Virus record (IMG/VR): IMGVR_UViG_3300048583_000100
Coordinates: 33,428-97,427 of that record
From: a virus
Length of the DNA: 64,000 bases
Strand: one strand, 5' to 3'
The notes under the pieces were generated by a model, which was given only the letters and a program-made list of their open reading frames with translations, had not been told where the DNA came from and searched no databases. Positions 4,121 through 56,395 of this stretch are shown here, piece by piece (positions within the stretch are counted from its first letter, which is position 1; every line of letters begins with the position of its first letter). Made by a program: the position numbers and the translations under genes.

Positions 4121-5515
4121 TTAGGCGGTGAAGGTGAAGGCCTTCAGCTCACGGCGGTACATCTCATTCGCAGTGTCAGCCTTGAGGACAGCAAGCGCCT
4201 TCTTGTCCTCGGCGATCTCGGCCTTGAGCTCTTCGATCTTGTCCTTGGTCAGATTCCAAATCGGCATCTGCAGCAGGCGGTCGTAGTCGACGAAGTCGTT
4301 CTTGAGAAGCAGAGTGACGAGGTCGTCCTTCTTCTTGTTCTTGAACGCATCGACATTGGCCAGATAGAACAGGATGAAGCGAAGCTTCTCACTCAGCCAG
4401 CGGATGCGTTCACTGACATCTGCGATCATCTTCTGACGGCGATCTTCGTAGCGAGCCAGACGCCAGGCGGTGAATCGTTCGATGACAGCTTCGGCCGACG
4501 TAAAGCGCTTGATGATGCCGTCGGTATCCCAGAGCGTGAAGTTCTCGGTATCGCGCGAGATGAGCTTAAACTTCTTGTAGAGCTCGTCAGTGTCAAGAGC
4601 CGAAGTCGAGCGAGGCACCTTGACGATGAACTCAAAGCTGTGCTCCGTCGGGTTGCCTTCGTAATCGGAGATGACGCCGGCGTCCTCGAGCTTATTGAGC
4701 GTCTTCTTGTAGTCGTCGAGATACGTACCGATAGGGAACTCGGTGATCTTGATGGTGGTCGAGTTAACAACCTCGAGCTTGCCAGTGATGACAACCTGTC
4801 CAGTCTCAGCATTGCGCTCAATGGTACCGGCGAAGTTGTTGTACCAGGGAATCAGCGCGCCTTCCTTGAGCTTCTTGCCATCGAGGACCTTGATGATCGT
4901 GTCGCGAATCTGAGTAGGATGATAGGCCATGATGTTGCAAGCGTGGCCCGTACCGGTACCCTGAGCGCCATTGATGAGCATCAGCGGGAGGATCGGCATG
5001 TAGGTGCGAGGCTCGATCTTGTCGCCATCGTTTTCCAGATGATCGAGGATGTCGTCATCAGCCTTCGGGAAGAGGGCTCGGAAATACGGAGAGAGCTTCG
5101 TCTCGATGTATCGAGCAGCAGCGGGGTCGGCCGACAGACGAGAACCGAACTGACCTTCCGGCAGGAAGACGTTCATGTTGTTGGAGCCTGCGTAGTTGTT
5201 CGCAAGACCAACAATGGTCGACTGCATGGAGCCGATACCGTGGTGGTAGTCGGTCTCAGATGCGACGAAAGCTGCGAGACGTTCGACAGAGAGAAGGCCA
5301 CCATTTTCACCGCGACGAAGCGTGCCACAGATTGCCTTACGCTGTGAAGGCTTGAGGCCGTCAGTCAGCAGAGGAATCGAGCGGACGTTGTCGTAAAGGG
5401 AGAATTCCTTGAACGCCGAGCCGATGAAATGGCGGGTTCGAATGACACGAATGGATTTGGAAGCCGTCTTCGTAGGAGTCATCTTGGGTTCTGCTTTCTT
5501 GATAATGCGAGACAT
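4121..5515 (-). CDS. Type II DNA topoisomerase, cleavage subunit (T4 gp52 / GyrA-like)
   Basis: DGLKPSQRK, YHHG, GQFGSR, AAARYI (catalytic Tyr), LINGAQGTGTG; no C-terminal pinwheel domain. Confidence 0.96.
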   Translation of the reverse strand: MSRIIKKAEPKMTPTKTASKSIRVIRTRHFIGSAFKEFSLYDNVRSIPLLTDGLKPSQRKAICGTLRRGENGGLLSVERLAAFVASETDYHHGIGSMQSTIVGLANNYAGSNNMNVFLPEGQFGSRLSADPAAARYIETKLSPYFRALFPKADDDILDHLENDGDKIEPRTYMPILPLMLINGAQGTGTGHACNIMAYHPTQIRDTIIKVLDGKKLKEGALIPWYNNFAGTIERNAETGQVVITGKLEVVNSTTIKITEFPIGTYLDDYKKTLNKLEDAGVISDYEGNPTEHSFEFIVKVPRSTSALDTDELYKKFKLISRDTENFTLWDTDGIIKRFTSAEAVIERFTAWRLARYEDRRQKMIADVSERIRWLSEKLRFILFYLANVDAFKNKKKDDLVTLLLKNDFVDYDRLLQMPIWNLTKDKIEELKAEIAEDKKALAVLKADTANEMYRRELKAFTFTA

Positions 5516-5520
5516 GTAGT

Positions 5521-5550
5521 ATTGTATCCTGTTTTTGATTGGACGTAAAC
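5521..5550 (-). promoter_or_regulatory. T4-early-like promoter GTTTAC-N18-TACAAT
   Basis: Same consensus recurs at 11 sites in the window. Confidence 0.75.
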
Positions 5551-5554
5551 TGAA

Positions 5555-5761
5555 TCAGATTTTGATCAGGTTACTCTGCCTGACGGCGTAAGTTTTGTTC
5601 TCGTCAGAGCACAGCATGACGAGAATCTTACCGCCTCTGGTCCTCTTGATTATCTGGCACTCCGCGCCGATGAATGGACGAGAGTCGGCGTCAAAGTACA
5701 AATCGCCGCGGCTGTCGACAGTCACCCGGTCACCGGGCTCGAACTCTCCCGTCCTCATCAA
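5555..5761 (-). CDS. Small SH3/KOW-like hypothetical protein
   Basis: FEPGDRVTV start; lies between the two topoisomerase genes. Confidence 0.55.
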   Translation of the reverse strand: MMRTGEFEPGDRVTVDSRGDLYFDADSRPFIGAECQIIKRTRGGKILVMLCSDENKTYAVRQSNLIKI

Positions 5762-54231: not shown

Positions 54232-55860
54232 TCAGAACTGCTGAATCAGCTGAGGAGCTGCCGAGTCAAAGCCGACGATGTCGAGCATACCAGGGTCCTT
54301 CGGGTCGGCGATCGTGAAGCTAGTCGTCGAAGTACCGCAGACGATCAGCTTCGCATCGCGGTTGTACTGCTTGCGGTAGCGCGCGAGCGCTTCTACCGGC
54401 TGCATACGACCCGCGTAGGTCTCGTTGTCCGTGATGACGATGAACTTGTCAACAGCAGACATGTTCTTCTCGATGGCCGTGAGCATTGGCAGCGAGCAGT
54501 CAGTCGAGCCCCAGCTGAAGTTGCGAATCACGTTGAGCACGTTGTCGAGACGCATTGCTGGCGTGATCTTGAGCTCGCTCATCTTCGAGTTGAAACCACC
54601 AACCCAAGAGTTCGACTCACGCTTCACGACTGCCATTGCGAGAACACCGGCAACTTCTGCAGCGGTGAGGTTAGGAGCACCGATGGCGCGTGCACCGAAC
54701 ATCGAGCCCGAGCAGTCAACGCCGATGAAGTGGCCCTGACCAGTGCTTTCGATGTACTGGAACGAATCATAGAACGCATCGTTCAGCGCATCGAGGACCG
54801 CCTGTACAGGCTGCCAGGTGAGAGTACCGCGATCACCATGGCCCTGGCGGTACTGGTTGAAAGCGTTCAAGATGGTGATCGGGTGAACTCGACCGTTCTT
54901 GATTGCCTCTGCATCAGTCAGCTTGGCGATGACAGTCTTCAGATCGCTCGAGAGCGGCTTGATGACGCCAATGTTGGTGAGCTGACCCAGCTTACGGATC
55001 AGCGCAGTCATGCCCATGTTCTGGACCAGTGCGCCCATTACATCAGCGTCACGGTGCAGTTCAGTTGGCAGCATTTCCCAGCTGATATCGCGGTAGTCTG
55101 CGATCACGCGGAGAGCGTTCTTCTTGTTCTGTGGCTCACGCTTCAGCGACTCGACAGCCGTGTACAGGCCTGGCAGAGCAACATTGGCTTCAGTGAAGGT
55201 CTCCGCACCCTTGACGGTGTAGCGGAACATGTTCGACTGGACGTCAGACTTCGGCTTCACGTGTGCGAGGCGGAGGACGTCGCGGTGCGACCAACCATCA
55301 CGAGACTGGTACTTGAGCAGCTGGACGGCGAGCTTGTCTTCGCCACGCTTGGTGTACCATGCAGCAACACCGCGCTTCGCAGCAGCGTTCCACTTGCCAA
55401 GCTCGTCAAGTGCAGAGACGAACTGGAAGAGATGCGTACCGATACGAGCCACACGAGGCAGAGCCTCGTAAGCAGCAGCGACAGTTGCTTCGTTGCCATG
55501 GATGGCGCAAAGAGCCAGCGCGAACACAGCTGGGTCGTTCTTTGGCGCGCGACCTTCGGTTGAGAACTCGACGATGCGATTCACGACACGGATGCCGTCT
55601 TCGTGGATGCACTTGATGACGTTCTTACCGGCATCCTTCGTCAGCTTCTGGGCAGAAGCGTAGTACGACGGCTTGTCGGAACCGAGGATGAGGAAGCGGT
55701 CGAGGTAGCCCCAGTTGTCTAGGACGAACGTGAAACCACCGGCATAGTTCTTGGCCATTTCGGTCTCACGACCAGCAATTGGCGAAGTCTGGCGGGTCTG
55801 CGTGGTAGCAGGGTTCGTCGACAGCGTCGAGGCGTAGAAGTTCTTGAGGTTCTTTGACAT
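54232..55860 (-). CDS. rsr: Ro60/Rsr TROVE + vWA domain RNA-binding protein
   Basis: NYAGGFTF, RFLILGS, RIGTHLFQF, KYQSRDGWSHRDVLRLAHVKP, MTALIRKLG, RVHP, DCSGSM (MIDAS), TDCSLPM, TDNET, GFDS. Confidence 0.96.
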   Translation of the reverse strand: MSKNLKNFYASTLSTNPATTQTRQTSPIAGRETEMAKNYAGGFTFVLDNWGYLDRFLILGSDKPSYYASAQKLTKDAGKNVIKCIHEDGIRVVNRIVEFSTEGRAPKNDPAVFALALCAIHGNEATVAAAYEALPRVARIGTHLFQFVSALDELGKWNAAAKRGVAAWYTKRGEDKLAVQLLKYQSRDGWSHRDVLRLAHVKPKSDVQSNMFRYTVKGAETFTEANVALPGLYTAVESLKREPQNKKNALRVIADYRDISWEMLPTELHRDADVMGALVQNMGMTALIRKLGQLTNIGVIKPLSSDLKTVIAKLTDAEAIKNGRVHPITILNAFNQYRQGHGDRGTLTWQPVQAVLDALNDAFYDSFQYIESTGQGHFIGVDCSGSMFGARAIGAPNLTAAEVAGVLAMAVVKRESNSWVGGFNSKMSELKITPAMRLDNVLNVIRNFSWGSTDCSLPMLTAIEKNMSAVDKFIVITDNETYAGRMQPVEALARYRKQYNRDAKLIVCGTSTTSFTIADPKDPGMLDIVGFDSAAPQLIQQF

Positions 55861-55906: not shown

Positions 55907-56250
55907 CATCACTCGATTCTGTTATCTCCTCCACAAAATTTGGAGTCGGAGACTTCAGTTGACGACCCGAAGGTATAGCCGAAGCTACTTGCCAACCTAG
56001 CCCATGATTTTCAGTCATGTGCGGCCAATCTGGTTATTTCTAACCAGCAACTCAGACACTTTCGAGTGTCAAAATATCGCCATTTCTACAGCGAGAATAG
56101 CTTCCTGTTTGGGGGTTAAATCAGGCCAGGAAACGGCCTACCTATTTTGCTTGACGCTCGGAATAGGCACCTAGTCCTTGCGGACGCCACCACTTCAGTA
56201 TAGGATAACCAACATCCGCCGGTGGAAGAGCTAACAGAATCGAGTGAGTG
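55907..56250 (-). ncRNA. Large Y-RNA-like structured RNA (about 340 nt)
   Basis: Perfect 16-bp terminal inverted repeat (55909..55924 with 56232..56247) continuing into a Y-like stem-bulge and TTATC; interior filled with hairpins; sits directly upstream of Ro60. Confidence 0.72.
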
Positions 56251-56266: not shown

Positions 56267-56346
56267 GGTTCGAAAGAAGGAAACTAAGTAGTGACGATTG
56301 GAGGTGATCTGCAAGATAACCAATCGTCTCCGGTTTCATTCGAACC
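56267..56346 (-). ncRNA. Small Y-RNA-like stem-bulge RNA (about 80 nt)
   Basis: GGTTCGAA/TTCGAACC, GAAAC/GTTTC and GACGATTGG/CCAATCGTC stems; loop begins TTATC. Confidence 0.72.
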
Positions 56347-56365: not shown

Positions 56366-56395
56366 ATTATACACTCGATGAGACGGAATGTAAAC
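56366..56395 (-). promoter_or_regulatory. Early-type promoter GTTTAC-N18-TATAAT driving the Y-like RNAs and Ro60
   Basis: Consensus match about 20 bp upstream of the small RNA. Confidence 0.78.

What the first reader, a model, noticed from the sequence alone, without database searches (positions are those of the whole stretch)
56267..56346. Second, minimal Y-like RNA with a metazoan-style TTATC motif shared with the large RNA
Seen: GGTTCGAA-T-GAAAC-CGGA-GACGATTGG-TTATC-loop-CCAATCGTC-ACTACTTA-GTTTC-CTTCT-TTCGAACC. The motif ACCGG...TTGGTTATC occurs at the same structural position in both RNAs (56315..56334 and 56204..56223). That duplication is the best internal evidence that both are ligands of one protein. 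The layout resembles vertebrate Y / sbRNA (lower stem, bulge, upper stem, UUAUC) more than the tRNA-mimicking YrlA (inference).
Basis: partly seen in the sequence, partly recalled or inferred. Interest (0 to 1): 0.8.

Follow-up and report, generated by a model that had tools for sequence, protein, structure and literature searches.

The report
Minimal phage Y RNA beside Ro60
An uncultured giant phage encodes, just upstream of its Ro60 gene, an 80-base hairpin RNA that is a genuine, conserved "minimal" Y RNA (a Ro60 partner RNA); this is a known kind of RNA, but it shows clearly that the UUAUC motif of animal Y RNAs is also kept in phage and bacterial Y RNAs.

Summary
The 20-nt pattern shared with the large RNA occurs exactly twice in the window, against 0 expected.

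The RNA is real. Syntenic copies in related jumbo-phage contigs keep every helix through compensatory changes. A covariance model built from it finds 66 copies beside 42 of 80 phage Ro60 genes and 214 copies beside at least 67 of 80 bacterial Ro60 genes. Every copy lies on the Ro60 strand.

The conserved module has four parts:
- a 5-bp helix;
- CCG(G/A)A with a bulged or mismatched C and G·U pairs (Chen 2014's GNCGAA motif);
- a 9-bp covarying stem;
- UUAUC exactly 11 nt after CCG.

In cultured actinophages the same module also carries the tRNA-like body of YrlA-type RNAs. The motif is therefore a general feature of prokaryotic Y RNAs, not special to this RNA.

The window RNA scores 37.0 bits on the Rfam nematode sbRNA family RF01656 (cut-off 38). 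Two relatives pass the cut-off.

Verdict: this is a new member of a known kind, a simple YrlB- or phiLo-Yrl2-like Y RNA and most likely a Ro60 ligand. Binding is untested. This scan has already reported the same class on other DNA.

The parts
56366..56394 (-). Sigma-70-like promoter TTTACA-17 nt-TATAAT. Its -10 element ends about 19 nt before the first base of the small RNA's outer stem.
   Evidence: 11 of 12 consensus positions. Similar TTTAC..-N17-TAnAAT elements sit at the same distance in relatives L002-L006 (read directly).
56267..56346 (-). Small (minimal) Y RNA, 80 nt from outer stem to outer stem.
   Evidence: (R2 57.4 bits, E 1.6e-12).
56339..56346 (-). Outer stem P1, 5' strand GGUUCGAA. 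It pairs with 56267-56274.
   Evidence: P1 is replaced by other complementary pairs in relatives: ACGGCU/AGCCGU, AAGAGUUC/GAACUCUU, GCUACGU/ACGUAGC, UAUAGAUUUA/UAAAUCUAUA, AACGAAUUAGA/UCUGAUUCGUU.
56329..56337 (-). Ro60-docking 5' strand: P2 GAAAC (56337-56333) followed by C-GG-A, read as CCGGA. This is a variant of the bacterial GNCGAAN0-1G motif and of the animal GGUCCGA motif.
   Evidence: C-C-G is invariant or nearly so in 150 bacterial copies. The G forms a conserved G·U pair in 45 of 48 sequences.
56320..56328 (-). Upper stem, 5' strand GACGAUUGG. It pairs with 56293-56301.
   Evidence: All 9 pairs show changes on both sides.
56315..56319 (-). UUAUC at the 5' end of the loop, 11 nt after CCG.
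56302..56314 (-). Variable part of the loop (UUGCAGAUCACCU). It is not conserved in relatives.
56293..56301 (-). Upper stem, 3' strand CCAAUCGUC.
56280..56292 (-). 3' strand of the docking region: internal loop ACUAC, then UU (pairs with GG), A (opposite the C), then P2 3' strand GUUUC.
   Evidence: The U-U-G of the 3' strand is conserved in 127-144 of 150 copies.
56267..56274 (-). Outer stem P1, 3' strand UUCGAACC. No U-tract or terminator follows it.
56204..56223 (-). The same ACCGG-N6-UUGGUUAUC motif at the 5' side of the neighbouring large (about 340 nt) Y-like RNA (about 56250..55907). Given as context only.
54232..55860 (-). Ro60 gene (542 aa), the presumed protein partner.
   Evidence: vWA_Ro60 2.3e-53, TROVE 1.7e-32. 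(X. laevis Ro60 1yvp E 2e-102; D. radiodurans Rsr 2nvo E 9e-102).

Best explanation
This is a small trans-acting Y RNA of the simple, YrlB-like type. It is transcribed from the sigma-70-like promoter at 56394..56366 as the first element of a small-RNA / large-RNA / Ro60 transcript and is cut out by processing. It then docks on the outer surface of the phage Ro60 ring through its bulged helix: GAAAC-C-GG-A on the 5' strand and UU-A-GUUUC on the 3' strand. The 9-bp upper stem holds the invariant UUAUC at a fixed distance and angle from the docking site. There UUAUC most likely acts as a hinge or kink, or as a second protein contact. With only an 18-nt loop, the RNA is a bare Ro60 handle. It would gate Ro60's RNA-binding surface and/or recruit a host single-strand RNA-binding nuclease such as PNPase. 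The neighbouring large RNA gives the same Ro60 a different effector module. Shown here: the RNA is real, conserved, structured and tied by strand and position to Ro60 genes, and it carries the family's docking motif. Inferred: transcription start, processing, Ro60 binding, and the gate or tether role.
For: A full-length Ro60 gene lies 406 nt downstream on the same strand. A promoter-like site lies just upstream, and no terminator sits between the RNA and Ro60. Syntenic copies occur in 10 related contigs with compensatory changes in P1, P2 and the upper stem. RNAalifold on a MAFFT alignment recovers the same structure, with 10 of 17 pairs compensated. On 48 sequences, 93.4% of cells are paired against 65.7% in shuffles and 35-51% when partners are slid. 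There are 235 double-change cells against 75 expected. Model hits total 66 beside phage Ro60 genes, 214 beside bacterial ones and 14 in cultured actinophages; all are on the Ro60 strand and within about 1-2 kb. Only one hit is found in the whole 97-kb phage record. The CCG-to-UUAYC spacing is fixed at 11 nt. A motif-blind hairpin scan finds UUAYC after the upper strand 73 times on the Ro60 strand and 0 times on the other strand in phage loci, and 144 against 2 in bacterial loci. Literature precedents: (a) Rsr-bound YrlA/YrlB are processed from one precursor upstream of rsr in M. smegmatis (PMC4201824). (b) Thermus phage phiLo has two Yrl RNAs upstream of its Ro60; binding is at the stem-bulge with CGAA, and ternary complexes form with host PNPase (PMC12135203). 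(c) The conserved UA in S. Typhimurium YrlA makes a ~30 degree kink between the Rsr stem and the effector module (bioRxiv 10.1101/312249).
Against: There are no expression, end-mapping or binding data. The docking motif here is ACCGGAG, which departs from GNCGAAN0-1G at two positions, although G at the second of them occurs in 51 of 150 bacterial copies. The C is opposed by an A, a mismatch rather than a clean bulge. Only about 12 of 26 close relatives with intact upstream DNA keep the small RNA, while nearly all keep the large one, so it is dispensable. The alignments used for pair counts were fitted to the model. The record holds no PNPase or RtcB partner (the record is about 27% complete).
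Confidence: 0.8

Rival explanations
1. It is a cis-acting leader element of the Ro60 operon transcript, such as an RNase III or RNase E processing site, a 5' stabiliser hairpin or an autoregulatory Ro60 operator. On this reading it is not a stable trans-acting RNA.
For: It lies between the promoter and the Ro60 ORF with no terminator of its own. The long perfect outer stem P1 would suit RNase III. An operator bound by Ro60 would also carry the docking motif.
Against: In other loci the same module occurs in arrays of 3-8 copies, and also downstream of Ro60. It is also the handle of YrlA-type RNAs, whose S. Typhimurium and M. smegmatis counterparts are stable, Rsr-bound RNAs (PMC4201824). A leader role does not explain the invariant UUAUC at a fixed distance.
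Confidence: 0.08
2. It acts independently of Ro60, through its upper stem and UUAUC, in initiation of DNA replication. This is the role reported for vertebrate Y RNAs and nematode sbRNAs.
For: It matches the sbRNA family RF01656 nearly at the cut-off. UUAUC and the upper stem are the elements needed for sbRNA activity in a cell-free replication assay (PMC4450293, PMC4726728).
Against: The upper stem covaries freely, with 4-6 pair types at most of its 9 pairs, and shows no fixed GUG/CAC-type sequence. The module is linked to Ro60 genes by strand and distance in every locus examined. Bacteria and phages lack the eukaryotic replication machinery on which that assay depends.
Confidence: 0.03
3. 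It is a decoy. The minimal handle titrates a host Ro60 (Rsr) or a host nuclease away from its normal substrates, rather than serving the phage's own Ro60.
For: It has no effector module beyond UUAUC. In phiLo, the phage Ro60-Yrl complexes attenuate host PNPase (PMC12135203). Bacterial Ro60 loci carry the same module, so cross-binding is plausible.
Against: It is co-transcribed with the phage's own Ro60. The host is unknown and most bacteria lack Rsr. The RNA is lost in about half of close relatives that keep Ro60.
Confidence: 0.07

Closest known systems
Simple bacterial and phage Y RNAs: S. Typhimurium and M. smegmatis YrlB, D. radiodurans Yrn2, Thermus phage phiLo Yrl2 (PMC4201824, PMC12135203)
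   Same: It is encoded within 0.5 kb of Ro60 on the same strand, next to a larger Y RNA. It is a single long hairpin formed by 5'/3' pairing. It has a CG(A/G)A docking motif on the 5' strand of a bulged helix, a small pyrimidine-rich loop and no tRNA-like module. It is probably processed from a common precursor.
   Different: Its sequence is unrelated to any record in the phage collection. It has an A/U-rich P2 (GAAAC, where the consensus is GGGCC) and CCGGA instead of CCGAA. It has an extra 8-bp outer stem. Its partner RNA is a ~340-nt non-tRNA-like RNA instead of YrlA. I could not obtain the published YrlB, Yrn2 or Yrl2 sequences, so no direct alignment was made.
YrlA (Rfam RF02553), the tRNA-mimicking Y RNA
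   Same: It shares the whole stem module. In cultured actinophages the R2 module encloses the YrlA tRNA-like core, which starts right after GGUUAUC. Chen 2014 noted a conserved YUAY at this point.
   Different: There is no T- or D-arm and no match to RF02553 or tRNA even at E<=10. The loop is only 18 nt.
Nematode stem-bulge RNAs (Rfam RF01656 ceN72-3_ceN74-2) and vertebrate Y RNAs (RF00019)
   Same: The layout is the same: lower helix, C bulge, G·U pairs, asymmetric internal loop, 9-bp upper stem and UUAUC at the loop start, with the same 11-nt CCG-to-UUAUC spacing. The R2 consensus and the RF01656 consensus are identical at 38 of 46 stem-module positions without gaps (read). Scores on RF01656 are 37.0 bits here and 38.4 and 38.1 bits in two relatives, against a cut-off of 38.
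   Different: The score is below the family cut-off. There is no match to RF00019 at E<=10. There is no 3' oligo-U tail or Pol III signals. The loop is far shorter: the RF01656 alignment skips 66 model positions. The C is mismatched with A rather than bulged. The upper stem has no fixed GUG/CAC sequence.

Membership tests
Bacterial/phage Y RNAs (Yrl; simple YrlB-like type) | Encoded within a few kb of a Ro60/Rsr gene, on the same strand | tested here: met
   The RNA's 3' end at 56267 is 406 nt upstream of the Ro60 start at 55860, on the same strand. All 294 relatives found are also co-oriented with Ro60.
Bacterial/phage Y RNAs (Yrl; simple YrlB-like type) | The 5' and 3' ends pair into a long stem that holds a GNCGAAN0-1G-type docking motif on the 5' strand | tested here: inconclusive
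   The stem is present and covaries. The motif reads ACCGGAG, two departures from the strict consensus. However, CCG is invariant and G at the variable position occurs in 51 of 150 bacterial copies.
Bacterial/phage Y RNAs (Yrl; simple YrlB-like type) | Bound by Ro60/Rsr and dependent on it for accumulation | not testable with these tools
   This needs co-immunoprecipitation or EMSA, and a Ro60 deletion.
Bacterial/phage Y RNAs (Yrl; simple YrlB-like type) | A simple hairpin without a tRNA-like effector module | tested here: met
   The loop is 18 nt. There is no tRNA or YrlA match at E<=10.
YrlA (RF02553) | tRNA-like T and D arms; score at or above the gathering cut-off of 69 bits | tested here: not met
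   No match at E<=10.
Nematode sbRNA family RF01656 | Score at or above the gathering cut-off of 38 bits | tested here: not met
   The score is 37.0 bits. Relatives L065 and L051 reach 38.4 and 38.1 bits.
Nematode sbRNA family RF01656 | A Pol III gene with a 3' oligo-U tail | tested here: not met
   The sequence after the outer stem is CUCAACGUUCC, with no U run. A bacterial-type promoter lies upstream.
Vertebrate Y RNA (RF00019) | A match to the family model; a conserved helix with a single bulged C; an oligo-U tail that binds La | tested here: not met
   There is no RF00019 match at E<=10 in the window region or in L065. The C is opposed by A. There is no U tail.

The most novel reading that the evidence does not exclude
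The whole stem module is one ancient Ro60-docking-plus-hinge unit shared, by descent or by transfer together with Ro60, among phage, bacterial, nematode and vertebrate Y/sbRNAs. The module is a helix, C bulge, G·U pairs, a 9-bp stem and UUAUC exactly 11 nt after CCG, plus UUG on the 3' strand. On this reading UUAUC, so far discussed as a DNA-replication motif of animal Y/sbRNAs, is primarily a Ro60-RNP structural element. The review statement that bacterial Y RNAs are 'not homologous' to animal ones (PMC4726728) would need revision. This minimal phage RNA would be the simplest natural substrate on which to test the idea.
Probability: 0.45. Interest if true: 0.7.

Novelty: new member of a known kind. 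Interest (0 to 1): 0.45.

Why it matters
The RNA adds an unannotated small RNA gene to a jumbo-phage Ro60 locus. It shows that one phage Ro60 can be paired with two very different partner RNAs: a bare handle and a ~340-nt body.

Because the handle here carries no effector domain, its conservation separates what belongs to Ro60 docking from what belongs to effector modules. The docking part is CCG(G/A)A, the G·U pairs, the 9-bp spacer and UUAUC.

UUAUC sits at the same spacing in about 280 phage and bacterial Y RNAs and in the nematode sbRNA consensus. The function of UUAUC is unknown in animals. In a two-component phage system it could be tested by EMSA or structure determination with motif mutants.

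Tried and rejected
- blastn of the RNA region against 50,697 phage records found no match.
- Rfam at gathering thresholds found only tRNAs in the window.
- The single-sequence MFE register for the inner lower helix was rejected in favour of the covariation-supported register.
- L007, one of four exact pattern matches in viral contigs, has no hairpin, no model hit and no nearby Ro60-sized ORF. I treated it as a chance match.
- R1 and R2 do not detect the large RNA, because its two strands are about 300 nt apart. Its handle was read by eye only.
- RtcB is absent from the 97-kb record.
- RF01656 finds nothing in 14 control genomes, including D. radiodurans. The sbRNA-like score is therefore not a general property of bacterial genomes, nor of the Deinococcus Y RNAs.
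- The loop holds a 10-nt string equal to the 16S rRNA 3' end. It is not conserved in any relative, so I dropped it as a functional lead.
- The first version of the motif-blind scan timed out and was rewritten. Its background is high, about 400-950 chance hairpins per strand, so only the 5-mer enrichment is usable, not the totals.
- Two reviews (PMC10870794, PMC6542706) were not available. I cannot exclude that the UUAUC link has been stated there.

Full report
**What is there.** The window is the 3' 64 kb of a 97-kb IMG/VR virus record, estimated 27% complete, so it is a jumbo phage. On the minus strand, 56346..56267 reads GGUUCGAA-U-GAAAC-C-GG-A-GACGAUUGG-UUAUC-UUGCAGAUCACCU-CCAAUCGUC-ACUAC-UU-A-GUUUC-CUUCU-UUCGAACC.
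- A sigma-70-like promoter, TTTACA-17-TATAAT with 11 of 12 consensus positions, lies at 56394..56366. No terminator-like site follows the hairpin.
- Downstream on the same strand come a ~340-nt highly structured RNA (z = -6.2) and a 542-aa ORF at 55860..54232.
- That ORF carries the TROVE and vWA_Ro60 domains. It matches Xenopus Ro60 and Deinococcus Rsr over its full length, with E about 1e-102.
- The pattern ACCGG-N6-TTGGTTATC occurs at 56334..56315 and 56223..56204 and nowhere else. Shuffles expect 0 matches.

**Is the RNA real?**
- The 80-mer folds better than all 200 shuffles (z = -4.2).
- Five viral contigs whose Ro60 is 66-76% identical have the same order upstream of Ro60: promoter, small hairpin, large RNA.
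- Their small hairpins differ in sequence but keep each helix. The upper stem becomes UCAAGUUGG/CCGACUUGA, ACAAGUUGG/CGACUUGU or CGUUAAUUG/CGAUUAACA.
- The outer stem takes at least five unrelated self-complementary forms.
- Model R1, built from five copies, found the three held-out syntenic copies at 36, 28 and 24 bits.

**How widespread is it?**
- A Ro60 profile fetched 80 viral loci with 40-76% identity. R1 found 66 matches at E<=1 in 42 of them. All are on the Ro60 strand, mostly within 1 kb upstream or just downstream, and up to 5 per locus.
- On the 48 best matches, 93.4% of cells pair, against 65.7% in shuffles and 35-51% when partners are slid. There are 235 double changes against 75 expected, and all nine upper-stem pairs are compensated. 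This alignment was fitted to the model, so the counts lean towards the structure.
- Model R2, built from these matches, found 214 matches at E<=0.1 in 80 bacterial Ro60 loci. Again all are co-oriented with Ro60. The 150 best-scoring matches alone cover 67 loci.
- R2 found only the small RNA itself in the whole 97-kb phage record.
- In cultured actinophages (Tonenili, Sparky, Blueeyedbeauty, Cashline, Big4) R2 finds both ~60-70-nt hairpins and ~120-140-nt RNAs. In the longer ones the loop, starting right after GGUUAUC, holds the tRNA-like core recognised by Rfam YrlA at sub-threshold scores of 31-42 bits.
- The handle is therefore common to simple and YrlA-type Y RNAs.

**Conserved anatomy.** The positions below are from the 150 bacterial copies.
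- C-C-G is invariant or nearly so (144, 150 and 150 of 150).
- The next base is A or G. In the 48 phage copies, the G of CCG pairs with a U in 45 of 48.
- The upper stem is 9 bp.
- U-U-A-(U/C)-C follows it (149, 149, 142, 119+29 and 146 of 150).
- On the 3' strand, U-U-G precedes the closing helix (134, 127 and 144 of 150).
- The distance from CCG to UUAYC is 11 nt in about 80% of copies as counted. The counts at 16 nt are most likely a regex artefact, which would put the true share near 90%.
- These numbers come from model hits and are therefore circular for the motif. As a control I scanned all loci for bulged hairpins without specifying the loop. UUAYC directly after the 9-nt strand occurred 73 times on the Ro60 strand and 0 times on the opposite strand in phage loci, and 144 against 2 in bacterial loci. 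No other 5-mer was enriched.

**Comparison with known families.**
- CCG(G/A)A-G is the GNCGAAN0-1G motif of Chen et al. 2014 (PMC4201824). They relate it to the GGUCCGA contacted by Xenopus Ro60.
- The same paper notes a conserved YUAY that 'begins the V loop' of YrlA. The YrlA crystal-structure preprint (10.1101/312249) reports that the conserved UA makes a ~30 degree kink between the Rsr-binding stem and the effector module.
- UUAUC is thus partly known in YrlA. Its conservation in hairpins that have no tRNA-like module shows that it belongs to the handle, not to tRNA mimicry.
- Simple hairpin Y RNAs are known from other systems: YrlB, Yrn2 and phiLo Yrl2. For phiLo, binding to phage Ro60 at the stem-bulge and ternary complexes with host PNPase have been shown (PMC12135203).

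**Resemblance to animal RNAs.**
- The only Rfam match to the small RNA is the nematode sbRNA family RF01656: 37.0 bits against a cut-off of 38, E 7.8e-6 in an 801-nt search and 2.1e-7 per genome.
- Two relatives chosen only through Ro60 homology pass the cut-off (L065 38.4 bits, L051 38.1 bits). Seven others score 25-34 bits.
- Read from the tool outputs, the R2 consensus and the RF01656 consensus are identical at 21 of 24 positions on the 5' side and 17 of 22 on the 3' side. There are no gaps and the CCG-N11-UUAUC spacing is the same.
- No match to vertebrate Y_RNA (RF00019) appears at E<=10. RF01656 hits none of 14 control genomes.
- From memory only, and not tested here, human Y1 and Y4 also have CCG-N11-UUAUC.
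- Kowalski & Krude (PMC4726728) describe bacterial Y RNAs as highly divergent and not homologous to vertebrate ones. They describe UUAUC as a loop motif needed for sbRNA activity in a replication assay.
- In the papers I could search, none links UUAUC to bacterial Y RNAs.

**Mechanism.** The best reading (0.8) has four steps, all inferred.
- The RNA is the promoter-proximal part of a polycistronic small-RNA / large-RNA / Ro60 transcript.
- It is excised by processing, as shown for M. smegmatis YrlA and YrlB.
- It docks on Ro60 through the bulged helix.
- It presents UUAUC and a short variable loop.

Because it is a bare handle, it most plausibly gates Ro60's RNA-binding surface or recruits a host nuclease. 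The large RNA supplies a different module to the same protein. Only about 12 of 26 close relatives keep both RNAs, while nearly all keep the large one. The small RNA is therefore an accessory. The rivals are less likely because the module occurs in multi-copy arrays on either side of Ro60, because the upper stem covaries freely, and because it is co-transcribed with the phage's own Ro60. The rivals are a cis leader element, a Ro60-independent replication role and a decoy for host factors.

**Verdict.** The RNA is a new member of a known kind. Other agents of this scan reported the same class beside Ro60 genes on other DNA and reached the same classification. Those notes were not used as evidence. 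The most interesting residue is the general point that the animal UUAUC motif and its spacing are a conserved part of the prokaryotic and phage Ro60 handle. This minimal RNA makes that easy to test.

Noticed in passing
window 56300-56309 (minus strand): The loop and the first two bases of the 3' upper-stem strand read GAUCACCUCC. From my own knowledge this is identical to the 3' end of bacterial 16S rRNA (the anti-Shine-Dalgarno region). It is not conserved in any relative's loop, so it is probably chance.
   Followed up: partly
L137, L141, L149, L138, L130 (Chloroflexota MAG contigs), about 4200-5560: These loci hold arrays of 5 to more than 8 co-oriented Y-handle modules directly downstream of the bacterial Ro60 gene. 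They alternate ~60-nt and ~120-150-nt forms. Such arrays are far larger than the two Y RNAs described per species.
   Followed up: no
L053:798-913: A wcaG RNA motif (RF01761, 56.2 bits, cut-off 42) sits in a phage contig between Y-RNA copies (636-793) and the Ro60 gene.
   Followed up: no
L060:4409-4543, L071:2163-2291, L082:1808-1931 and 2269-2366: These tRNA-model hits are 98-135 nt long and lie beside phage Ro60 genes. They may be YrlA-like tRNA mimics or intron-containing tRNAs. I did not resolve which.
   Followed up: no
L008:2526-3054: One phage contig carries, after a tRNA array, a YrlA-like RNA (38.5 bits) and then two small handle hairpins. One of the hairpins has GGUUCUC instead of GGUUAUC. 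A TROVE ORF follows immediately.
   Followed up: partly
This is a GUUAUC without the CCG-N11 spacing, and model R2 does not hit it. A YrlA-like RNA in L065 likewise has GUCCUUUGGUUAUCGG.
   Followed up: no
L010-L039 (close relatives): The CCG-N11-UUAUC start of the large RNA is kept in nearly all close relatives. The small RNA is present in only about 12 of 26, so it has been lost or replaced repeatedly.
   Followed up: partly
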